Source: Nostoc sp. PCC 7120 = FACHB-418
GTDB taxonomy: Bacteria; Cyanobacteriota; Cyanobacteriia; Cyanobacteriales; Nostocaceae
DNA length: 32,000 bases
Assembly: GCF_000009705.1 (NCBI RefSeq)
Contig: NC_003272.1
Coordinates: forward strand, 4,140,001 to 4,172,000
Direction of reading: 5' to 3'
The notes beneath the pieces are model-generated. The model did not search any database, was not told where the DNA came from, and saw only the letters and a program-made list of their open reading frames with translations. The position numbers and the translations under genes are program-made. This document shows, in pieces, positions 1,666-24,418 of the stretch (position 1 is its first letter; every line of letters begins with the position of its first letter).

Positions 1666-2568
1666 ATGAAAGTCTACGATATATACTCAAAGCGTCAAAC
1701 AAGGCTAAGAGAAGAATTTCCTGATGTTTATCAGTATGTTGATATCCCTCAACCGCTTCGCGTGCAGATTGCTTACATTATTTATGATGTTATAGCTGAA
1801 CCTGTAGATATAGAATTAATAAAGAGTTTTAGCGAAATTTATAGCAGACTATACCGTGAATACGGTAAGTTAAAACAATCAATTGTAGGCAAGGATATAA
1901 TTAATCTTTTTATGTTCAATACTGAGAAAACAGAACATACTCTTGATTTTATAGAGTTAAGTTTTAAATTGATTGACTATACATATAGAAACAGAATGGC
2001 ATTTATTAAAAATTCAAAAATTACAGCCGATGAAGCAATTAAAGAATTAAACTTCAGGTTTAGAGAACACGGATTAGGTTATCAATATGAGTCAGGTAAA
2101 ATTATCAAAATTGATTCTCAGATAATTCATGCTGAAGCAGTCAAGCCAGTTTTACACTTGCTAAGTGATAGCAGATTTCAGGGAGTGAATGAGGAATTTC
2201 TAAAAGCACACGAACACTACAGACATGGACACTACAAGGAATGTCTTGTTGAATGTCTCAAGGCTTTTGAGAGTACTATGAAAACTATATGTGATACTCA
2301 AGGATGGAGTTACCAGCCTGGAGACACAGCTAAAAAACTTATTAATGTTTGCTTTCAGAACAATCTAATTCCTACTTATTTACAAGACCAATTTTCTTCA
2401 CTTAGACAAAATCTTGAAAGTGGAGTGCCTACCATGAGAAATAAAAATGGTGGTCATGGTCAAGGTTCTCAACCACTTAATGTCCCACAATACTTTGCTG
2501 GCTATCAACTTCATATGACGGCAAGCACAATCCTATTTTTGTTAGAAGCAGAGAAGACGCTGCCTTAA
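1666..2568 (+). CDS. AbiJ-like abortive-infection protein (AbiJ-type N-terminal domain plus C-terminal HEPN)
   Basis: The N-terminus MKVYDIYSKRQTRLREEFPDVYQYVDIPQPLRVQIAYII matches my recollection of the STM4504/AbiJ-NTD family (FSKRQ..PDVY.YD.IP..LRVQI). The C-terminus has an Rx5H HEPN motif, R258-NKNGG-H264 (nt 2437-2457). The gene is visibly AT-richer than its neighbours and has no HIP1 site. Confidence 0.65.
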   Translation: MKVYDIYSKRQTRLREEFPDVYQYVDIPQPLRVQIAYIIYDVIAEPVDIELIKSFSEIYSRLYREYGKLKQSIVGKDIINLFMFNTEKTEHTLDFIELSFKLIDYTYRNRMAFIKNSKITADEAIKELNFRFREHGLGYQYESGKIIKIDSQIIHAEAVKPVLHLLSDSRFQGVNEEFLKAHEHYRHGHYKECLVECLKAFESTMKTICDTQGWSYQPGDTAKKLINVCFQNNLIPTYLQDQFSSLRQNLESGVPTMRNKNGGHGQGSQPLNVPQYFAGYQLHMTASTILFLLEAEKTLP

Positions 2569-2582
2569 AGTTAATTTTTACT

Positions 2583-3263
2583 TTATTCTGGCAGTTCTCC
2601 AAATTGCTGGCGATAACGCTCAAGTTGTTTTTGTACTGCTTCTAGCTGTTCTTCTGGGGTTTGATATCGCTTTCCTTGTTGGTCATACCAATATAAAACC
2701 TGACGCTGTAAATCACCAGAAATATACTGTCCTCTACCAATTCCCAACCCAATTTCTGACATCCAAAAGGGTTCACCGATTTGTAATTGGTAGCCACCAT
2801 TTACTAGACGATAAACTTCAAAAGGTTGGTGGCGATCGCGCTGCCAATACTCTGGATTATAAATAATGTAGTATAGTACCCCTAGCTTGGCGTAAGTATC
2901 TAATTTCTTGTCGTATTCTCCACCAGGAGTTAAAGAGACAATTTCTAAAGCCAGTATAGGTGCAATATTGTCTTCTTCCCAAACAACATAGCTTTTACGA
3001 GATTTATCTGCTTTGCGGCGTTCTACACCTAAGCTCAAAAATCCGTCCGGCACAATTGGCACAAGTGGACTGACCCCTGTTGTATGATAAACGCCCATAT
3101 CAACACCGAAAAACCAGTCTTTACGGTTTGCCCAAATATATTCCAGTAAGAATAGGAGCAAGTTGGGAATAAAATTTTGGTCTTCGTTATCCACAGGGGT
3201 ATCGTCTGAACAAGGAAGTTCAGCACTGCTAGGTAAAGAGAGGCGAGGGTCGGATTTCACCAT
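2583..3263 (-). CDS. Uma2 (DUF820) family restriction-endonuclease-like protein
   Basis: 226 aa. Typical cyanobacterial Uma2 layout: IPNLLL...W...D..VY....SPLVPD.F, LALEIVS (PD-(D/E)xK core), Y.KLGV.YYIIYNP. The C-terminal tail is coiled-coil-like. Confidence 0.8.
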   Translation of the reverse strand: MVKSDPRLSLPSSAELPCSDDTPVDNEDQNFIPNLLLFLLEYIWANRKDWFFGVDMGVYHTTGVSPLVPIVPDGFLSLGVERRKADKSRKSYVVWEEDNIAPILALEIVSLTPGGEYDKKLDTYAKLGVLYYIIYNPEYWQRDRHQPFEVYRLVNGGYQLQIGEPFWMSEIGLGIGRGQYISGDLQRQVLYWYDQQGKRYQTPEEQLEAVQKQLERYRQQFGELPE

Positions 3264-3831: not shown

Positions 3832-6207
3832 ATGGACGCTGAAGCAGCATTAGCATGGTTAGACACCATAATTCCTGCTCAGACCGGGGAACGGTTGAGC
3901 GATTTGCAAAAAGTTATTGTTGTGCAGGTTTGGTTGGGTAGGAAATATTTGGATATTGCCCGTGCTTATGGTTGTACGGAAGGACACGCTAAGGATGCTG
4001 GCTCACATTTATGGAAACTGCTTTCTCAAGTACTGCGGGAGAGGATTACCAAGAGTAATTGTCGCGCTACGTTGGAACGAGTGCTGAGAAAAACTACGGC
4101 TATATCTGGTCTAATTGATTACCAAAAATTGACCCAACAACCTACACCTAAATTAGAGGATAGCAATTTTTTAGGTAGGGAGGAAGCGATCGCTCACCTA
4201 AATACTCTAGTAAATCCAGGCTCGAAAGTGATTGTCGTCCAAGGTGAGGGGGGTTTAGGCAAAACTACTCTCGCCCAGCAATATCTCCAAACTCAGGGTT
4301 TTGACTTGGTTTTAGAACTGTTAATGGCGAAGGAAACCCAAAACATTACCCCGGCGGAACGGGTGGTGGAAGAATGGCTCAAACAAGACTTTGGGGAAGA
4401 ACCAGGGGTAGAGTTTGGTGTGACGTTGGGACGACTCAAGCGCCAACTCCACAATCGGCGGATTGGGGTGTTAATTGATAATCTGGAACCTGCATTAGAT
4501 CAACAAGGTCGTTTGATTCCGCTTCACCGCAATTATGTAGAACTGTTGCGGGTTTTGGCTGATGTTAGGGTGCAGTCGGTAACGTTGATTACTAGCCGCG
4601 ATCGCCTGTGTGAACCTGGTTTAAATGTGCATCACTATCGGCTTCCAGGTTTGGATCAAAGCGCATGGCAAAAGTTTTTTAGTAACCGTGGGTTAACTAT
4701 CAACTTGCCTATCTTGCAACAAATACATCATACTTACGGCGGTAATGCCAAAGCAATGGGGATTCTCTGCGGGGCGATGCAGGAAGATTTCGGCGGGGAT
4801 ATGGCGCTTTATTGGCAAGAAAATCATGGTGATCCTTTAGCCGCAACAGATTTAAAGAATTTAGCGGTGAGTCAAATTAATCGTTTGCAAGCCCTTGATC
4901 CCCAAGCCTATCGCCTACTGTGCCGTTTGGGATGTTATCGTTACCAAGATATACCCACCATTCCCTCATCAGGACTGTTTTCTTTACTTTGGGATGTTCC
5001 CGCGTCTGAACATCGTCAACTTATTGCTTCCCTGAGAAATCGCTCTTTAGTGGAGTGTCATCAAGGGGAATATTGGCTACATCCGGTAATTCGCGCCGAG
5101 GCGATCGCTCGTTTACGTACCAGTGATGAGTGGGAAATAACCAATCACAAGGCTGCCGATTTTTGGACAGCTAGTATTCCCAAAATTGCCACATTTCAAG
5201 ATGCTTTACAAGCGCTAGAAGCATATTATCACTACATAGACATCAACGAATTTGAGTTAGCAGGTAAGGTAATTCTCAAGAGTCGCAATAATCAATGGCA
5301 GCAGTTTTTACCCTTGGGAAGTACCTTGTATCGGATGGGTTTGATTCAGCCGATATTAACAGCAATTAATCAAGTTTTAAAAAATATTCAGCATGACCAA
5401 AACTTAAGTGAATTGTACAATATATTGGGTGATTTACATTGGATAACAGGGAATATTAGTCAAGCGATCGCCTGTCAGGAAAAAACCATCAATCTGACAA
5501 CACAAGCCCTGAAATCACTCGTACCGCAACCAGAGAATAAACATAAAGTCTACTATTTGAGAATGTTAGAAGTAGATTCTCTCTTAAGTATTGGTCTTTA
5601 TAAGATAGATTTGTGGGAACTGGAAGACGCTGCCAAATTATTTCAACAAGTAATTTACCTAGCCCAAAATACAGACCATCATCGCTGGGCAGAAAAAGCT
5701 TCTGTATGTTTAGCCTTAGTCAATTCATACTTAGGTTTATGTGATGCTGCTTATTTATTAGCAGATGTAGCTTACCGAAATATTAAAAAAGAAGCAATTA
5801 TAGAGACAGGAAGATTCGCTTATTTCATTCAAATATTAGGTCAAACCTATGTTAATTTAGGAGACTTTACCAAAGCAAAGGAAATGTTTCACCAAGCTTT
5901 GACCTTTGCGGAAGAAAGCCATTATATGCAGGTTAAAGCAAAAACCCTGAATGGATTAGCAGAAATTCATCGCCAACAAGCAGATTATCCATTAGCCCTG
6001 GCTTATCATACAGAAGCAATCGAACTTTTAGATAAAATCGGCGCTAAATGTGACCTAGCTGAAACCTATTTTCAATTAGGTTTAACTTATAAAAAAATGG
6101 CAAAGTCTGATGCCAGTCAAAAGTATTTTACTCAAGCAATAAATTTATTTACAGAAATTAAAGCCCCTAATCAAGTTGACAAAATTTCCATAACTGCCAG
6201 TTTTTAG
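3832..6207 (+). CDS. STAND NTPase: N-terminal HTH-like module, NB-ARC ATPase, C-terminal TPR array
   Basis: Walker A VVQGEGGLGKTTLAQQY. Walker B RIGVLIDNLE. NB-ARC-like TLITSRDR and GGNAKAM (GLPL-like). C-terminal TPR-like repeats, for example LGQTYVNLGDFTKAKEMFHQALTFAEE and YFQLGLTYKKMAKSDASQKYFTQAINLF. The N-terminal LSDLQKVIVVQVWLGRKYLDIARAYGCTEGHAKDAGSHLWKLL resembles a sigma-70 region 4/LuxR-type HTH. Confidence 0.8.
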   Translation: MDAEAALAWLDTIIPAQTGERLSDLQKVIVVQVWLGRKYLDIARAYGCTEGHAKDAGSHLWKLLSQVLRERITKSNCRATLERVLRKTTAISGLIDYQKLTQQPTPKLEDSNFLGREEAIAHLNTLVNPGSKVIVVQGEGGLGKTTLAQQYLQTQGFDLVLELLMAKETQNITPAERVVEEWLKQDFGEEPGVEFGVTLGRLKRQLHNRRIGVLIDNLEPALDQQGRLIPLHRNYVELLRVLADVRVQSVTLITSRDRLCEPGLNVHHYRLPGLDQSAWQKFFSNRGLTINLPILQQIHHTYGGNAKAMGILCGAMQEDFGGDMALYWQENHGDPLAATDLKNLAVSQINRLQALDPQAYRLLCRLGCYRYQDIPTIPSSGLFSLLWDVPASEHRQLIASLRNRSLVECHQGEYWLHPVIRAEAIARLRTSDEWEITNHKAADFWTASIPKIATFQDALQALEAYYHYIDINEFELAGKVILKSRNNQWQQFLPLGSTLYRMGLIQPILTAINQVLKNIQHDQNLSELYNILGDLHWITGNISQAIACQEKTINLTTQALKSLVPQPENKHKVYYLRMLEVDSLLSIGLYKIDLWELEDAAKLFQQVIYLAQNTDHHRWAEKASVCLALVNSYLGLCDAAYLLADVAYRNIKKEAIIETGRFAYFIQILGQTYVNLGDFTKAKEMFHQALTFAEESHYMQVKAKTLNGLAEIHRQQADYPLALAYHTEAIELLDKIGAKCDLAETYFQLGLTYKKMAKSDASQKYFTQAINLFTEIKAPNQVDKISITASF

Positions 6208-20141: not shown

Positions 20142-20340
20142 AACCCTCATCAATGAACCAATCAAAATAACTTCCCTAAATCCCAGCCAATCAGCTTCAA
20201 AAAACCTCCGCGTCACTCTGCTCTTACCTCCCATCCCTCTGCGTTAAAAAAATTGCCTAATTTATACAAATTATCATTCATTATTACTAATACTAGTCAT
20301 TTTTGATGCTAAAACAAGAATAACTAATCACAGTGTATAT

Positions 20341-22437
20341 ATGGTAACTCCAAATAAAGAAAAAGCATTATTACTGTTACGTCAGGCATTAGATAACCCA
20401 ACATCTAATTTTCGTCCAGGACAGTGGGAAGCAATAGAAGAATTAATTGAAAGGCGATCACGTTTACTCGTCGTCCAACGTACTGGCTGGGGTAAAAGCT
20501 TAGTTTATTTTTTAGCAACAAAACTATTGAGAGATAAAGGTGCTGGCTGTACCCTTTTAATTTCACCCCTACTAGCCTTGATGCGAAATCAAATTGCAGC
20601 CGCACAACGCATTGGAATCAAAGCTGCAACAATTAACTCTAGTAATCAAGATGAATGGCGAGCCGTCAAAACACAATTATTAGCAGGACAAGTAGATATT
20701 TTACTGATTTCCCCTGAAAGACTAGCTAATAATGATTTTAGGGAGAATATTCTCTTACCAATATCTCAAAGTATAGGCTTATTTGTAGTTGATGAAGCCC
20801 ATTGTATTTCTGATTGGGGGCATGACTTTCGCCCTGATTATCGGCGAATTGTGAGAATTTTACAAGGACTACCAAAAAATATTCCTATCCTCGCTACAAC
20901 GGCTACTGCTAATAACCGAGTTATTGATGATATTATCGCTCAATTAGGTGCTAATTTGCAGGTTGTGAGAGGTAATTTAACTAGAGAAAGTCTGCGGTTG
21001 CAAAATATTTCCCTTCCCAGTCCAGCAGCAAGAATGGCTTGGTTAGTCGAACAATTACCTCAACTACCTGGAAGCGGAATCATCTATACATTAACAGTGA
21101 GAGATGCTAATCGGGTTGCTAACTGGTTACAAACTCAAGGCATTAATGCTAAGTCATACCATAGCGATTTAGAAAGTGATATTCGTATAACATTAGAAGA
21201 CGAACTATTAAATAATCAAATTAAAGCTTTAGTAGCGACTACGGCTTTAGGTATGGGTTTTGATAAACCAGATTTAGGTTTTGTGATTCATTATCAACGC
21301 CCTGGTTCGGTTGTCCACTATTATCAACAAGTAGGCAGAGCAGGTAGAGCAGTAGACATTGCTTATGGCATTCTTCTGAGTGGTGATGAAGATGAGGAAA
21401 TTACTAACTACTTTATTAATACAGCTTTTCCCCCACAAATTCATACTCAACAGGTTCTGAACATACTCAACCAAGAAGAAGGTCTTTCAGTACCACAATT
21501 AGAACAAAAATTAAATCTTTCTAGAGGACAAATCGACAAAGTTTTAAAACTGTTATCATTGGAATCTCCTAGCCCAGTCACTAAAATAGATTCTAAATGG
21601 TATGTGACTGCTATTAACTATCAATATGATGAACAAAAAATTGCCAACTTAACAGCAATTCGCCGCCAAGAACAAGCCACAATGTCAGCATATATGCAGA
21701 GTCAACAATGCTTAATGGCTTTTCTGGCAACCGAATTAGATGACGCAAATCCGCAAAATTGTGGTAAATGTGCTGTTTGCGTAGGTAGACCTTTGCTACC
21801 AGTAAATTGTTCAATAGAAATGCTAAATCAAGCTGTTTTATATTTACGTCGCAGTCAACAAATCATTGAACCGCGTAAACAATGGCCCTCACAAGCATTA
21901 CTCAGTTATAAATTTTCTGGAAATATTAGCAATAATTTAAGGGCGCAGGAAGGAAGGGCATTATCATTGTGGGGTGATGCTGGTTGGGGTGAATTAGTAA
22001 AACAAGGTAAATATAGAGATAATTATTTTAATGATGTATTGGTGCAAGGTACTGTAGAGATGATTAAACGTTGGCAACCACAACCGTTTCCTAGTTGGGT
22101 GACTTGTGTGCCTTCATTAAATCGTCCAGAACTTGTACCAAACTTTGCTCAAAGGTTAGCTGAGAAGCTAGGTATAACTTTTGTGCCAATTGTGCGTAAG
22201 GTTAAGCAAACACAGCTACAGAAAGATATGAGCAACAGTTACCAACAAGCTCATAATTTGGATGGCGCATTTAAAATTGATGCTTGGCCAGGAATTGGTG
22301 GTTCTGTATTCTTAGTGGATGATATGGTAGATTCCCGTTGGACTTTTACTGTAATTGCGGCGCTTTTACGCGGTGCTGGTAGTGGACAGGTTTTTCCTGT
22401 GGCATTAGCCCTCAATACATTAGGTCAAGGGGATTAG
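20341..22437 (+). CDS. RecQ-family helicase fused to a C-terminal ComF-like phosphoribosyltransferase domain (PsyrT/RqlH-like)
   Basis: Helicase motifs: VVQRTGWGKSLVY (I), FVVDEAHCISDWGHDFRPDY (II, RecQ-type), LATTATA (III), HYYQQVGRAGR (VI). Cys cluster CGKCAVC. C-terminus: WVTCVPS...QTQLQKDMSNSYQQAHNLDGAFKI...VFLVDDMVDSRWT, the ComFC/PRTase layout with an atypical PRPP loop (DSR in place of TTG). Confidence 0.8.
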   Translation: MVTPNKEKALLLLRQALDNPTSNFRPGQWEAIEELIERRSRLLVVQRTGWGKSLVYFLATKLLRDKGAGCTLLISPLLALMRNQIAAAQRIGIKAATINSSNQDEWRAVKTQLLAGQVDILLISPERLANNDFRENILLPISQSIGLFVVDEAHCISDWGHDFRPDYRRIVRILQGLPKNIPILATTATANNRVIDDIIAQLGANLQVVRGNLTRESLRLQNISLPSPAARMAWLVEQLPQLPGSGIIYTLTVRDANRVANWLQTQGINAKSYHSDLESDIRITLEDELLNNQIKALVATTALGMGFDKPDLGFVIHYQRPGSVVHYYQQVGRAGRAVDIAYGILLSGDEDEEITNYFINTAFPPQIHTQQVLNILNQEEGLSVPQLEQKLNLSRGQIDKVLKLLSLESPSPVTKIDSKWYVTAINYQYDEQKIANLTAIRRQEQATMSAYMQSQQCLMAFLATELDDANPQNCGKCAVCVGRPLLPVNCSIEMLNQAVLYLRRSQQIIEPRKQWPSQALLSYKFSGNISNNLRAQEGRALSLWGDAGWGELVKQGKYRDNYFNDVLVQGTVEMIKRWQPQPFPSWVTCVPSLNRPELVPNFAQRLAEKLGITFVPIVRKVKQTQLQKDMSNSYQQAHNLDGAFKIDAWPGIGGSVFLVDDMVDSRWTFTVIAALLRGAGSGQVFPVALALNTLGQGD

Positions 22438-22443
22438 AAGACG

Positions 22444-23691
22444 ATGTTAAATCATGTTTTGCCACCGGATACTCAAGCAATTTTGCTCTTGTGTGCTAGC
22501 TTTGGGCAAAGTCGCCAAGTTGAACCACAACCCTTAACCTTAAGTGAGTATAATTCTTTAGCTGAATGGTTGCTGCAACAGGAAATGCGTCCAGCACATT
22601 TACTCGAATCAACAGTAAAAGAACAATTAAAACAACTTCATATCAGTAAACTTGACCCTGAGAGGCTGTTAGCTTTATTAGCACGGGGCGCAATGCTAAG
22701 TTTAGCCGTAGAAAAATGGACAAGTCGCGGATTATGGATACTTGGACGTAGTGACGCACAGTATCCTAAACTACTGAAACAGCGTCTAAAACATTCAGCA
22801 CCAGCAATTCTTTATGGCGTTGGCAAGATTGAACTTTTGTCACAGGGAGGACTAGCAATTGTCGGTTCCCGTGACGTAGATGAAGAGTTACTTGCTTATA
22901 CGCGAAAAGTTGCAGAAACTAGCGCTTTAGACGGAATGCAGGTAATTTCCGGTGCAGCCCGTGGTGTAGACCAAGAGGCTATGTTAAGTATTTTGAATGC
23001 TGGAGGCACATCTGTTGGTGTACTGGCGGATAGTTTGACCAAAGCCGCAGTCAATAGCAAGTATCGCTCCAGTCTTAAAGAAGGTAGACTAGCGCTAATT
23101 TCTAGTTATGATCCTGACGCTGGTTTCAATACTGGTAATGCAATGGGGCGCAACAAGTACATTTATGCTCTAGCTGATTACGCCCTTGTAGTTAATTCTT
23201 CTTTCGGTCAAGGAGGTACTTGGGCTGGTGCGGTAGAGGCTCTTTCTCGACTCAAAGAAATACCAGTCTTTGTGCGAATGGCTCCAACCGCATCAGAAGG
23301 TAATCGGCAATTACATAATCAGGGAGCAAAACCTTTTCCACCTGAACCTTGGAATGGTTCTTTAAATAAACTATTAGCAAAAGCTAGTTCTCTGGTTGAA
23401 TCGATTGATACCAATATCATCCAGCTTCCTCCAGAAAAATCCCAGGATACACAAAGCCACGAGTTATCATCAACCCCGCAAAACATCTATGAAGCTGTTT
23501 TACCTTTCATTCTTGGTCATTTACAGCAACCAAAGGATGCAAAAACTTTGGCACAATGTTTAGAAGTCCAACCATCTCAAATGCAAGAATGGTTGAAAAA
23601 AGCAGTACAAGAAGGGAAAGTGAGAAAAACTAATAGGCCAGTGGCTTATATAGCTAATCAACTTGTCACTCAACTTTCTTTATTGTCATAA
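22444..23691 (+). CDS. DprA/Smf-like (SLOG-fold) protein with C-terminal winged-helix (PsyrA/RqlI-like)
   Basis: LAIVGSRDVDEE, VISGAARGVDQEA, GVLADSL, MGRNKYIYALADYALVV and GGTWAGAVEAL match the DprA Rossmann core. The C-terminal IYEAVLPFILGHLQQPKDAKTLAQCLEVQPSQMQEWLKKAVQEGKV looks like a wHTH. Starts 6 nt after the helicase stop. Confidence 0.75.
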   Translation: MLNHVLPPDTQAILLLCASFGQSRQVEPQPLTLSEYNSLAEWLLQQEMRPAHLLESTVKEQLKQLHISKLDPERLLALLARGAMLSLAVEKWTSRGLWILGRSDAQYPKLLKQRLKHSAPAILYGVGKIELLSQGGLAIVGSRDVDEELLAYTRKVAETSALDGMQVISGAARGVDQEAMLSILNAGGTSVGVLADSLTKAAVNSKYRSSLKEGRLALISSYDPDAGFNTGNAMGRNKYIYALADYALVVNSSFGQGGTWAGAVEALSRLKEIPVFVRMAPTASEGNRQLHNQGAKPFPPEPWNGSLNKLLAKASSLVESIDTNIIQLPPEKSQDTQSHELSSTPQNIYEAVLPFILGHLQQPKDAKTLAQCLEVQPSQMQEWLKKAVQEGKVRKTNRPVAYIANQLVTQLSLLS

Positions 23692-23725: not shown

Positions 23726-24418
23726 ATGCTCACCCCACAGGAGTATCCAGTTGTGCAGCCGGACTTAATGGGTTTAGAAATCAGTAAAGGAGAACTGAGA
23801 CGCTTAACTGGGGTGTCACCAGAGAGAGTCCTTCGTCCTGGTGCGATCGCTAACCGTCAACAGCGCTTAAAATTTTGGCAGAATGAAATCTCGTTAGTAT
23901 TTGTACTATCTATAGTCATTGTTGGCTTAATTTACGGCTTGATTATTCTGCCAGCAATCGGTTCGGCAATTTCGTTAGGTATAATTTTATTCATTATAGT
24001 TGCAGTAGTGCTGTTACTAGGGCGATCGCTCTGGCAACGTCTCCAAACCCCAAAGGTACTCATAAAGCTTTTAGATGCAGTTGACCATTATCACGCCTTA
24101 ATCGTAGCGGTGGATGTAAACGACCAGTTGGCAGTGTCTGGAGATTTAGATAATAGTCTTGATGATAGAGAGCAAGTTATCACCACCTTGCAACTGTTAC
24201 GAGAAGATTTAGTCCAAGCTTTGAAAACAGCGCGGCTTTTGCGGGATAATAAAAAACTGCTTGCTAATCAACAAGAGCTATTTGTCAATAATGTCACCAA
24301 TATTCAAGCCATTAAAGACAGTACTCAGGCTAGCGAATATGGTCAGATTATCAATCAATTATTGCAGATTGACCTTGATGTACAAGCAGAATTGAGAAAA
24401 TTACAATCTCAGTGCTGA
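23726..24418 (+). CDS. membrane protein (two TM helices) with C-terminal coiled coil, function unknown
   Basis: Hydrophobic stretches ISLVFVLSIVIVGLIYGLIILPAI and ISLGIILFIIVAVVLLLG. The C-terminal half is heptad-rich. It contains two HIP1 sites, unlike the two genes upstream. Confidence 0.55.
   Translation: MLTPQEYPVVQPDLMGLEISKGELRRLTGVSPERVLRPGAIANRQQRLKFWQNEISLVFVLSIVIVGLIYGLIILPAIGSAISLGIILFIIVAVVLLLGRSLWQRLQTPKVLIKLLDAVDHYHALIVAVDVNDQLAVSGDLDNSLDDREQVITTLQLLREDLVQALKTARLLRDNKKLLANQQELFVNNVTNIQAIKDSTQASEYGQIINQLLQIDLDVQAELRKLQSQC

What the first reader, a model, noticed from the sequence alone, without database searches (positions are those of the whole stretch)
20341..23691. RecQ-like helicase-ComF/PRTase fusion plus DprA-like protein: PsyrTA/RqlHI-type module that mirrors the competence machinery
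Gene 1 combines a complete RecQ-type SF2 core (DEAH...DWGHDFRPDY) with a C-terminal ComFC-like PRTase domain whose PRPP loop is atypical (VDDMVDSRWT). Gene 2, 6 nt downstream, is a DprA/Smf (SLOG) Rossmann domain with a C-terminal winged helix. As I recall, helicase-PRTase plus COG0758 pairs were described as the psyrTA toxin-antitoxin family (also called RqlHI) and later shown to protect against phage. Their mechanism is unresolved, and I do not know of one characterised in cyanobacteria. The domain set also parallels the ComFA helicase, ComFC PRTase-like protein and DprA that process incoming ssDNA during natural transformation. That suggests a system acting on invading or replicating ssDNA, or on a nucleotide signal. 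The downstream TM/coiled-coil gene (23726-24418) may or may not belong to it.
Basis: partly seen in the sequence, partly recalled or inferred. Interest (0 to 1): 0.75.

Follow-up and report, generated by a model that had tools for sequence, protein, structure and literature searches.

The report
Known PsyrTA (RqlHI) toxin-antitoxin defence pair
These two genes are a textbook copy of the already described PsyrTA/RqlHI helicase-toxin plus DprA-like antitoxin module, sitting in an Anabaena/Nostoc PCC 7120-type chromosome; it is a correct call, but an ordinary one.

Summary
Two co-oriented ORFs lie at 20341-22437 (698 aa) and 22444-23691 (415 aa), 6 nt apart. Both match the PADLOC PsyrT and PsyrA models end to end (E=0, 1017 bits; 3.3e-140, 466 bits).

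Gene 1 has the published RqlH architecture: RecQ-type motor, RqlH-specific linker, tetracysteine zinc domain, ComF-like PRTase domain, no HRDC. Its "atypical" PRPP loop (LVDDxVDSxWTxT) is the family consensus. Gene 2 is a DprA/SLOG protein scoring below the canonical DprA threshold.

The ComF/DprA competence parallel was already published in 2012 and 2015.

The third gene (23726-24418) is not part of the module. Its orthologues sit directly upstream of a sugar kinase and minCDE in three Nostocales genomes with no PsyrTA nearby. The pair also occurs without it on a Nostoc plasmid and across many phyla.

In Nostocales the pair is common but accessory: present, absent or relocated, often beside small toxin-antitoxin genes.

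The likely mechanism, inferred by homology, is that the PRTase domain is a genotoxic effector restrained by PsyrA and released on infection.

No experimental work on this cyanobacterial copy was found. Known kind, low interest.

The parts
20142..20340 (+). 199-nt AT-rich intergenic region upstream of psyrT; presumed promoter region
   Evidence: Sequence read. The consensus scan found no sigma-70-like site on the + strand here. The promoter role is inferred, not shown.
20341..22437 (+). psyrT / rqlH: RecQ-like helicase fused to a ComF-like PRTase (698 aa), the presumed toxin/effector
   Evidence: ORF. PADLOC PsyrT E=0, full length. AlphaFold model pLDDT 90.9, pTM 0.86.
20404..21378 (+). RecQ-type SF2 motor (residues ~22-346): Walker A GWGKS (K52), DEAH 151-154, QQVGRAGR 329-336
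   Evidence: Pfam DEAD and Helicase_C. NCBIfam recQ_fam subfamily 264.3 bits, above the 219.8 cut-off. PDB RecQ 1oyw 2.2e-60 by sequence. Foldseek 1OYW E 3.8e-29, TMt 0.69, in an alignment that extends beyond the motor. Motif positions.
21436..21606 (+). RqlH-specific linker (residues ~366-422), predicted winged-helix-like insert between the motor and the zinc domain
   Evidence: Secondary structure H366-378, H384-390, H395-407, E413-416, E419-422 at pLDDT about 88-94. Weak Pfam HTH_11 3.6e-4 at residues 370-406. A ~90-aa linker is described for M. smegmatis RqlH (PMC3378886).
21631..21852 (+). Tetracysteine zinc-binding domain (C457, C474, C477, C480; C-x16-C-x2-C-x2-C)
   Evidence: Cysteine positions. 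Weak Pfam RecQ_Zn_bind 0.0021 at residues 438-480. RecQ_Zn_bind is hit in 15 of 40 C-terminal fragments of homologues.
21853..22419 (+). ComF-like type I PRTase domain (residues ~505-693), the presumed toxic effector domain
   Evidence: Profile against PDB: PRPP synthetase 4e-07, HGPRT, PurF. Pribosyltran in 38/40 homologues. GntX/comF in 32-34/40. The domain family has 1531 representative clusters at E<=1e-3.
22309..22350 (+). PRPP-binding loop FLVDDMVDSRWTFT (residues 657-670), corresponding by sequence pattern to the DIVD663 motif whose mutation abolishes E. coli RqlH toxicity
   Evidence: D661, S665 and T668 are invariant; L658, D660, W667 and T670 are >=90% conserved. Mutagenesis in PMC4670107. 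I did not align the F11 protein directly.
22438..22443 (+). 6-nt spacer between psyrT and psyrA (operon-like coupling)
22444..23691 (+). psyrA / rqlI: DprA-like (SLOG) protein (415 aa), the presumed antitoxin
   Evidence: PADLOC PsyrA 3.3e-140, full length. A 100%-identical protein, P0121, is named DprA in Anabaena sp. FACHB-709.
22720..23334 (+). DprA/SLOG Rossmann domain (residues 93-297)
   Evidence: Pfam DNA_processg_A 4.2e-37 and LDcluster4 2.2e-07. PDB DprA 3uqz 2.1e-06 and ShosA 9vzo 0.0027. TIGR00732 scores 98.6, below the 191.15 cut-off.
23485..23655 (+). Probable C-terminal winged helix (residues ~348-404)
   Evidence: H348-359, H366-372, H377-389, E393-395, E402-404 at pLDDT 75-86, in an otherwise poor model. 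An HTH domain at the RqlI C-terminus is described, and is dispensable for antitoxin activity, in PMC4670107.

Best explanation
The two genes are the PsyrT-PsyrA (also called RqlH-RqlI) module of an Anabaena/Nostoc sp. PCC 7120-type chromosome.

Shown here: both proteins are full-length members of the family, with every catalytic signature intact, arranged toxin first and antitoxin 6 nt downstream.

Mechanism, inferred from the characterised E. coli, M. smegmatis and related ShosTA systems:
- PsyrT is a 3'-5' ssDNA translocase/helicase. Its C-terminal ComF-like PRTase domain is a PRPP-dependent genotoxic effector that causes SOS induction, filamentation and growth arrest.
- PsyrA binds PsyrT directly. 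Together with the helicase domain it keeps the PRTase silent.
- Phage infection releases the PRTase, and the infected cell arrests or dies before phage release (abortive infection). The trigger could be loss of a labile PsyrA after host shut-off, or competition for PsyrA by phage ssDNA or replication intermediates.

The substrate and product of the PRTase, and the trigger, are unknown for the whole family.

Gene 3 is an unrelated neighbour.
For: - Membership: PADLOC PsyrT E=0 and PsyrA 3.3e-140, both full length.
- Architecture identical to published RqlH: motor, linker, Cys4 zinc domain, ComF-like PRTase, no HRDC (PMC3378886).
- Catalytic residues conserved. K52, D661, S665 and T668 are invariant; E152, A153, H154, D660 and W667 are at least 90% conserved.
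- The pair is conserved as a unit. A PsyrA homologue lies directly downstream of PsyrT in 71 of the 80 best loci across many phyla.
- Accessory, mobile behaviour:
  - present, absent or relocated among Nostocales;
  - on Nostoc plasmid pNPM3;
  - inside a type I restriction-modification operon on an E. coli IncF plasmid;
  - often next to PemK, PIN, DUF29 and UPF0175 toxin-antitoxin genes.
- Function by homology:
  - RqlH toxicity needs the PRPP-loop aspartates, is neutralised by RqlI, and the two proteins co-immunoprecipitate (PMC4670107);
  - PsyrTA protects against phage, and a psyrA deletion could not be transformed (Millman 2022 preprint);
  - the ShosT PRTase needs PRPP binding for toxicity, and ShosA binds ssDNA and RecA (PMC12961424 and PMC11961720).
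Against: - No experiment exists for this copy or for any cyanobacterial copy.
- The immediate neighbours in the window are housekeeping genes (cobA-hemD upstream; gene 3, a sugar kinase and minCDE downstream), not a defence island.
- In five Nostocales genomes the pair sits at the same site, and its divergence tracks that of the neighbouring genes. That looks like long vertical residence rather than recent mobility.
- A native E. coli PsyrTA showed no protection against the phages tested (10.1101/2024.12.20.629700).
- Russell & Mulvey favoured a cooperative DNA-maintenance role.
- Many Gram-positive bacteria carry RqlH without RqlI, so the helicase is not toxic in every background.
Confidence: 0.85

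Rival explanations
1. The pair is a domesticated DNA-maintenance module. RqlH and RqlI act together as a RecQ-like helicase plus a DprA-like recombination mediator in repair or recombination of the polyploid Nostocales chromosome, and toxicity is only a by-product of imbalance.
For: The pair lies at the same chromosomal position, upstream of gene 3, the kinase and minCDE, in PCC 7120-type, Nostoc NIES-2111, Calothrix PCC 7507, Anabaena cylindrica and a Stigonema MAG. Its identities (91/82/78/74%) track those of MinD (99/92/93/88%) and the kinase (90/81/81/80%). More than 100 clusters of 75-92% identical orthologues come from many Nostocales genera and other filamentous cyanobacteria. Mycobacteria with RqlH lack classical RecQ (PMC3378886). 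A cooperative model was proposed in PMC4670107.
Against: The pair is absent from that site in Nostoc PCC 7524, Cylindrospermum PCC 7417 and Nostoc CENA543. It is relocated in Dolichospermum, Aphanizomenon and Gloeotrichia and plasmid-borne in Nostoc N6. It scores below the RecQ and DprA equivalog cut-offs. Nostoc PCC 7120 is reported to carry two recQ genes (PMC5101192). An rqlHI double deletion in E. coli had no fitness phenotype.
Confidence: 0.1
2. The pair is a selfish addiction (toxin-antitoxin) module with no defence or repair benefit, kept only because losing it kills the cell.
For: Toxin-antitoxin behaviour is shown in E. coli and was found originally by shotgun cloning (PMC4670107; Sberro 2013, as cited). 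There are plasmid copies. Other small toxin-antitoxin genes cluster beside it in several Nostocales. A native E. coli system gave no protection in one study.
Against: Heterologous PsyrTA gave phage protection (Millman 2022). Two large multi-domain proteins with conserved catalytic residues across phyla are costly for a pure addiction element.
Confidence: 0.04
3. The pair is part of the natural-transformation machinery, a fused ComFA/ComFC analogue plus a DprA paralogue that handles incoming ssDNA. A variant is a three-gene system that includes the TM protein at 23726-24418.
For: There is domain-level resemblance to ComF and DprA. The gap to gene 3 is only 34-61 nt and no terminator was detected.
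Against: TIGR00201 comF scores 16 bits against a 233.55 cut-off, and TIGR00732 dprA 98.6 against 191.15. Surveys find ComF and DprA orthologues of the Synechocystis proteins across cyanobacteria, including heterocystous strains (PMC9429965 and PMC7292380). Gene 3 orthologues sit next to the kinase and minCDE without PsyrTA in three genomes. They are separated from PsyrA by 1.2-4 kb of inserted genes in two others. They are absent from the plasmid copy and from every non-Nostocales locus examined.
Confidence: 0.01

Closest known systems
RqlH-RqlI of extraintestinal pathogenic E. coli F11 (Russell & Mulvey 2015, PMC4670107), which is the same family as PsyrTA (Sberro 2013; Millman 2022)
   Same: Same two-gene order and tight linkage. 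Same domain architecture in both proteins. PRPP-loop aspartates, Walker A lysine and DEAH box are conserved. An E. coli plasmid orthologue is 53% (T) and 36% (A) identical over the full length.
   Different: The host is a filamentous cyanobacterium. The genes are 6 nt apart rather than overlapping. The immediate context is housekeeping genes, whereas the E. coli plasmid copy lies inside a type I restriction-modification operon. No functional data exist for this copy.
Mycobacterium smegmatis RqlH (Ordonez, Unciuleac & Shuman 2012, PMC3378886)
   Same: RecQ-like ATPase, ~90-aa linker, tetracysteine zinc domain, ComF-like PRTase C-domain, no HRDC, about 690 aa. M. smegmatis RqlH is biochemically a 3'-5' translocase and helicase. 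A related Mycobacterium colombiense locus is 52% identical.
   Different: Nearly all Gram-positive bacteria, M. smegmatis included, are reported to have RqlH without RqlI. Here the DprA-like partner is present.
ShosTA (PMC11961720, PMC12961424)
   Same: A PRTase-domain toxin paired with a DprA-like antitoxin. The window's PsyrA hits the PADLOC ShosA model at 4.3e-25 and the ShosA structures weakly. The probable logic is shared: PRPP-dependent genotoxicity countered by a DprA-like protein.
   Different: ShosT has an N-terminal pyrophosphatase-fold domain and no helicase. ShosA reportedly neutralises without binding ShosT, whereas RqlI binds RqlH. PsyrT gives no ShosT hit.
Canonical RecQ, DprA and ComFA/ComFC of DNA repair and natural transformation
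   Same: Homologous domains: RecQ catalytic core fold, DprA Rossmann/SLOG fold, ComF-type PRTase module.
   Different: Scores fall below every equivalog cut-off (RecQ 307.7/640.2; DprA 98.6/191.15; comF 16/233.55). There is no HRDC domain. The domains are fused and paired differently. The module is accessory, not core.

Membership tests
PsyrTA / RqlHI | Toxin protein matches the family profile over its full length | tested here: met
   PADLOC PDLC03928 PsyrT E=0, 1016.7 bits, residues 5-693 against profile 4-685/689.
PsyrTA / RqlHI | RecQ-like SF2 motor with intact ATPase motifs | tested here: met
   GWGKS at 49, DEAH at 151, QQVGRAGR at 329. recQ_fam subfamily 264.3 bits, above the 219.8 cut-off. 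Foldseek RecQ core E 3.8e-29.
PsyrTA / RqlHI | RqlH-specific linker followed by a tetracysteine zinc domain, and no HRDC domain | tested here: met
   C457-x16-C474-x2-C477-x2-C480. The linker at 366-422 is modelled as a winged helix. No HRDC hit in Pfam.
PsyrTA / RqlHI | C-terminal ComF-like PRTase domain with the PRPP-loop acidic residues needed for toxicity | tested here: met
   LVDDMVDSRWT at 658-668, with D661 invariant and D660 at least 90% conserved. PRTase profile hits. Mutagenesis precedent DIVD663.
PsyrTA / RqlHI | Antitoxin is a DprA/SLOG protein matching the PsyrA profile over its full length | tested here: met
   PADLOC PDLC03927 3.3e-140, residues 6-403 against profile 3-395/398. 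Pfam DNA_processg_A 4.2e-37.
PsyrTA / RqlHI | Gene order helicase first then DprA-like gene, same strand, adjacent or overlapping | tested here: met
   6-nt spacer. Same order in 71 of 80 related loci. This order is stated as a rule in PMC4670107.
PsyrTA / RqlHI | PsyrT is toxic alone and neutralised by PsyrA, and the two proteins interact | not testable with these tools
   Needs expression and co-immunoprecipitation experiments. Shown only for E. coli.
PsyrTA / RqlHI | Confers protection against phage | not testable with these tools
   Needs cyanophage challenge. Shown heterologously by Millman 2022. One native E. coli system gave a negative result.
Canonical RecQ (TIGR01389) | Score above the equivalog cut-off, and HRDC domain present | tested here: not met
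   307.7 bits against a 640.2 cut-off. No HRDC hit.
Canonical DprA (TIGR00732) | Score above the equivalog cut-off | tested here: not met
   98.6 bits against a 191.15 cut-off. PRK10736 scores 66 against 495.
ComF/ComFC (TIGR00201; GntX NF008616) | Score above the family cut-off as a stand-alone ~200-250 aa ComF protein | tested here: not met
   comF 16 bits against 233.55; GntX 22 bits against 304. The resemblance is at domain level only.
ShosTA | Toxin with an N-terminal pyrophosphatase fold plus PRTase, matching the ShosT model | tested here: not met
   No ShosT hit for gene 1. Only gene 2 hits ShosA, partially (87-277, 4.3e-25).
DpdF (7-deazaguanine DNA modification system helicase) | Score above the NCBIfam DpdF equivalog cut-off, with dpd neighbours | tested here: not met
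   NF041063 scores 166.3 against 550. The PADLOC DpdF hits are far weaker than the PsyrT hit. No dpd genes are in the window.

The most novel reading that the evidence does not exclude
In heterocystous cyanobacteria the module may have been retained at one chromosomal site (upstream of gene 3, the kinase and minCDE) since early in Nostocales evolution. It may have acquired a host function in managing ssDNA or recombination in these highly polyploid filaments, or in policing incoming DNA during transformation or conjugation, rather than serving only as a phage-triggered suicide switch. Because the window matches the genetically tractable model Anabaena/Nostoc PCC 7120, this copy could be used to identify the still unknown substrate of the helicase-linked PRTase.
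Probability: 0.12. Interest if true: 0.45.

Novelty: already known. Interest (0 to 1): 0.18.

Why it matters
The practical value is modest.

- It corrects database names for this pair. Sources in the protein collection call these proteins "RecQ family helicase", "RecG" or "DNA-processing protein DprA".
- It cautions against counting these genes as the organism's repair or competence genes.
- It shows that the model cyanobacterium Anabaena/Nostoc PCC 7120 very probably carries a native PsyrTA. That host would be convenient for the family's open questions: what the PRTase acts on, and what triggers it.

It does not reveal a new kind of system.

Tried and rejected
- **Fold search for the PRTase domain.** Foldseek of the full-length PsyrT model returned only RecQ-family helicases in the 50 rows shown, and the model cannot be cropped. 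I replaced it with profile searches of the isolated C-domain.
- **Structure of PsyrA.** The AlphaFold model from 25 close homologues was poor (pLDDT 49.8). I ran no fold search on it. The winged-helix claim therefore rests on secondary structure and on the published RqlI description.
- **Separate canonical recQ, dprA and comF in the same genome.** I could not test this directly. I relied on equivalog cut-offs and published surveys.
- **Gene 3 as a third component.** Rejected.
- **Insertion scars.** No convincing flanking direct or inverted repeats.
- **Non-coding features.** No tRNA and no Rfam family in the window. No terminator between the three genes and no consensus promoter upstream.
- **Phage-borne copies.** No full-length match in 50,697 phage records.
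- **Locus-tag literature search.** alr3450-alr3455 found only minC.
- **One look-up failed.** The Scytonema hofmannii protein P0016 was not on record.

Full report
**1. What is in the sequence**

The first ends in TAG at 22437, and six bases later the second starts. A third co-oriented ORF runs 23726..24418 (230 aa). Gene callers in identical public contigs start it at 23753, giving 221 aa. GC content across the region (0.375-0.419) lies within the window's overall range. The antisense ORFs inside the region are all 66 aa. There is no tRNA and no Rfam family anywhere in the window. No terminator-like site separates the three genes, and no consensus promoter was found in the 199-nt AT-rich spacer upstream.

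**2. Where the window comes from**

The PsyrA protein is 100% identical to a protein named for Anabaena sp. FACHB-709. That protein is seen on 148 contigs, the longest of 6,413,771 bp. From memory, that is the chromosome length of Anabaena/Nostoc sp. PCC 7120. Three public contigs carry the same genes at 100% identity and in the same order. The downstream minC corresponds to Alr3455 (PMC7766704). Counting back, the pair would be roughly alr3451/alr3452. This is inferred, not verified. No paper in the searchable library mentions alr3450 to alr3454.

**3. Identity of the pair**

- PADLOC's PsyrT model matches gene 1 with E=0 (1016.7 bits, residues 5-693 against profile 4-685/689).
- Its PsyrA model matches gene 2 with 3.3e-140 (465.7 bits, 6-403 against 3-395/398).
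- Gene 3 matches nothing in PADLOC, Pfam or NCBIfam.
- Gene 1 passes the RecQ-family subfamily cut-off (264.3 > 219.8) but fails the RecQ equivalog (307.7 < 640.2).
- Gene 2 fails the DprA equivalog (98.6 < 191.15).

So these are paralogous relatives of RecQ and DprA, not the canonical enzymes.

**4. Anatomy of PsyrT**

- The helicase motifs are all present: GWGKS at 49, DEAH at 151, DWGHDFRPDY at 158, QQVGRAGR at 329.
- An AlphaFold model built from 39 sequences is confident (pLDDT 90.9, pTM 0.86). Its best PDB match is the E. coli RecQ catalytic core (1OYW, E 3.8e-29, TMt 0.69).
- After the motor comes a segment at 366-422, modelled as three helices and a two-strand wing. It has a weak HTH_11 hit. 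This corresponds to the ~90-aa RqlH-specific linker of M. smegmatis RqlH (PMC3378886).
- Next is a C457-x16-C474-x2-C477-x2-C480 zinc motif.
- Last is the C-terminal domain.

**5. The C-terminal PRTase domain**

For the window sequence alone the PRTase signal is weak (Pribosyltran 0.036). At family level it is clear:
- Pribosyltran hits 38 of 40 diverse C-domain homologues.
- A profile of the domain hits PRPP synthetases (4e-07), HGPRTs and PurF in the PDB across the PRPP loop.
- GntX (a ComF homologue, from memory) and TIGR00201 comF hit 32 and 34 of 40 members, best 3.5e-10 and 6.6e-09. GntX is the window domain's top NCBIfam hit at 9.2e-05.

D661, S665 and T668 are invariant, and L658, D660, W667 and T670 are at least 90% conserved. 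By sequence pattern it corresponds to the DIVD663 motif whose mutation abolishes E. coli RqlH toxicity. I did not align the F11 protein directly. The domain family is moderately large, with 1531 representative clusters at E<=1e-3 and 214 at 1e-30 in 1.84 billion representatives.

**6. Anatomy of PsyrA**

The DprA/SLOG Rossmann domain spans residues 93-297. The closest solved relatives are pneumococcal DprA (3uqz, 2.1e-06) and, weakly, ShosA. The structure model is poor (pLDDT 49.8). Only the last ~55 residues are confident, and they show a helix-helix-helix-strand-strand pattern. That fits the C-terminal HTH reported for RqlI, which is dispensable for antitoxin activity.

**7. Distribution and context**

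At least 598 GTDB species genomes across many phyla encode a full-length relative. In 71 of the 80 best loci a PsyrA homologue lies directly downstream. The top 120 protein clusters are 74-98% identical and almost all come from Nostocales or other filamentous cyanobacteria.

| Position of the pair | Genomes |
|---|---|
| Upstream of gene 3, an SBD_N/NBD_C sugar kinase and minCDE | PCC 7120-type, Nostoc NIES-2111, Calothrix PCC 7507, Anabaena cylindrica, a Stigonema MAG |
| Elsewhere in the chromosome | Dolichospermum UHCC 0684, Aphanizomenon FACHB-1287, Gloeotrichia |
| On a plasmid (44.8-kb pNPM3) | Nostoc N6 |
| Not within 8 kb upstream of gene 3, the kinase and minCDE | Nostoc PCC 7524, Cylindrospermum PCC 7417, Nostoc CENA543 |

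At the shared site, the pair's identities track those of its neighbours. In Calothrix and A. cylindrica, small toxin-antitoxin genes and a DNA methylase have been inserted between PsyrA and gene 3. On an E. coli IncF plasmid the pair is embedded in a type I restriction-modification operon. No phage record carries a full-length copy.

The module is therefore common in Nostocales but accessory. It sits in a variable region, which fits a defence or toxin-antitoxin element better than a core repair or competence gene.

**8. Gene 3**

It has one long hydrophobic stretch (residues 50-106, enough for two membrane helices). Whether the tail forms a coiled coil was not tested. Its 311 detectable homologues appear restricted to Nostocales. 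Three observations show it belongs to the kinase-minCDE block and not to PsyrTA:
- It stays next to the kinase and minCDE whether or not PsyrTA is present.
- It is separated from PsyrA by 1.2-4 kb in two genomes.
- It is missing from every PsyrTA locus examined outside that site.

**9. Mechanism**

Shown here are family membership, intact catalytic signatures, operon-like arrangement and accessory distribution.

Known from characterised relatives:
- E. coli RqlH alone induces SOS, filamentation and mutagenesis. This requires the PRPP-loop residues and is countered by RqlI, which binds RqlH. Helicase-dead mutants are also harmful, which suggests the motor helps restrain the PRTase.
- PsyrTA protects against phage when transplanted, and a psyrA deletion could not be transformed.
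- In the related ShosTA system, PRPP binding is essential for toxicity, purine metabolism is disturbed, and the DprA-like antitoxin binds ssDNA and RecA and is intrinsically unstable.

Inferred for this locus: PsyrA holds a PRPP-dependent genotoxic PRTase in check. Infection releases it, either through decay of PsyrA after host shut-off or through phage ssDNA or replication intermediates engaging PsyrA or the helicase. The infected cell then arrests or dies. The PRTase acceptor and the trigger are unknown for the whole family.

**10. Comparison with what is known, and novelty**

Every defining sequence feature of PsyrTA/RqlHI that could be tested here is met. The two functional features, toxicity with neutralisation and phage protection, cannot be tested with these tools.

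- The ComF/DprA competence analogy was published in 2012 and 2015.
- Presence in cyanobacteria was noted then.
- PsyrTA appears in a survey of bloom-forming cyanobacteria.
- I found no experimental study of a cyanobacterial copy.

The finding is a correct recognition of a known system, so interest is low. The most novel reading still open is that this long-resident copy has a host DNA-handling role in Nostocales. The evidence for it is only positional conservation in some lineages.

Noticed in passing
window 23726-24418 (gene callers: 23753-24418): A protein apparently restricted to Nostocales, with no database family. It has one long hydrophobic stretch, enough for two membrane helices. It is conserved immediately upstream of an SBD_N/NBD_C sugar kinase and minCDE, with or without PsyrTA nearby. 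Its constant linkage to the Min cell-division genes might hint at a division-related role.
   Followed up: yes
L082 13336-14423; L084 8442-9775 and 13395-18514; L091 9258-9762; L094 4947-5721; L095 888-3990: The region just upstream of the gene 3, kinase and minCDE block is a variable hotspot in Nostocales. It is filled in different genomes with DUF29, PemK, PIN, UPF0175/Unstab_antitox, DUF433/DUF5615, Uma2 and DNA-methylase genes. In the window the only occupant is PsyrTA.
   Followed up: partly
window 1666-2568 (+), 2583-3263 (-), 3832-6207 (+): About 15 kb upstream lies a second group of defence-flavoured genes. One is an AbiJ_NTD4 + DUF7014 protein (weak PADLOC PDC-S32, 1.6e-08). One is a Uma2 putative restriction endonuclease (weak PDC-S03). 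One is a 791-aa NB-ARC/AAA_16 + TPR STAND-type NTPase.
   Followed up: partly
L086 700-10127 (E. coli IncF plasmid NZ_OX030731.1): Here the PsyrT-PsyrA pair is inserted between hsdS and hsdR of a type I restriction-modification operon (hsdM-hsdS-psyrT-psyrA-hsdR).
   Followed up: partly
PADLOC models PDLC02866 (255 aa) and PDLC02869 (74 aa), matched by window residues 459-691 and 627-691: Two PADLOC profiles labelled DpdF match only the ComF-like PRTase C-domain of PsyrT, at 7e-21 and 1.1e-17. Part of the DpdF model set therefore seems to describe RqlH-type C-domains and could cause mislabelling of fragments.
   Followed up: no
L092 13890-17663 (Gloeotrichia echinulata), minus strand: Next to this relocated PsyrTA is a three-gene cluster: a HATPase_c_3/HATPase_c protein (687 aa), a 233-aa protein with no family, and a Lactamase_B protein with a weak Anti-Pycsar_Apyc1 hit. 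It may be another defence or counter-defence unit.
   Followed up: no
L091 3871-8681 and 12104-13567 (Dolichospermum UHCC 0684): Five tandem paralogous genes of 282-294 aa with no Pfam family lie upstream of this PsyrTA. The PsyrA there is called as 487 aa, longer than the usual ~400-430 aa.
   Followed up: no
protein database names for P0008, P0052, P0080, P0107, P0121 and others: Orthologues of this pair are variously named RecG, RecQ, 'SMF family protein' or 'DNA-processing protein DprA' with competence GO terms. Surveys that count recQ or dprA genes by name or by BLAST may pick up this module instead.
   Followed up: no
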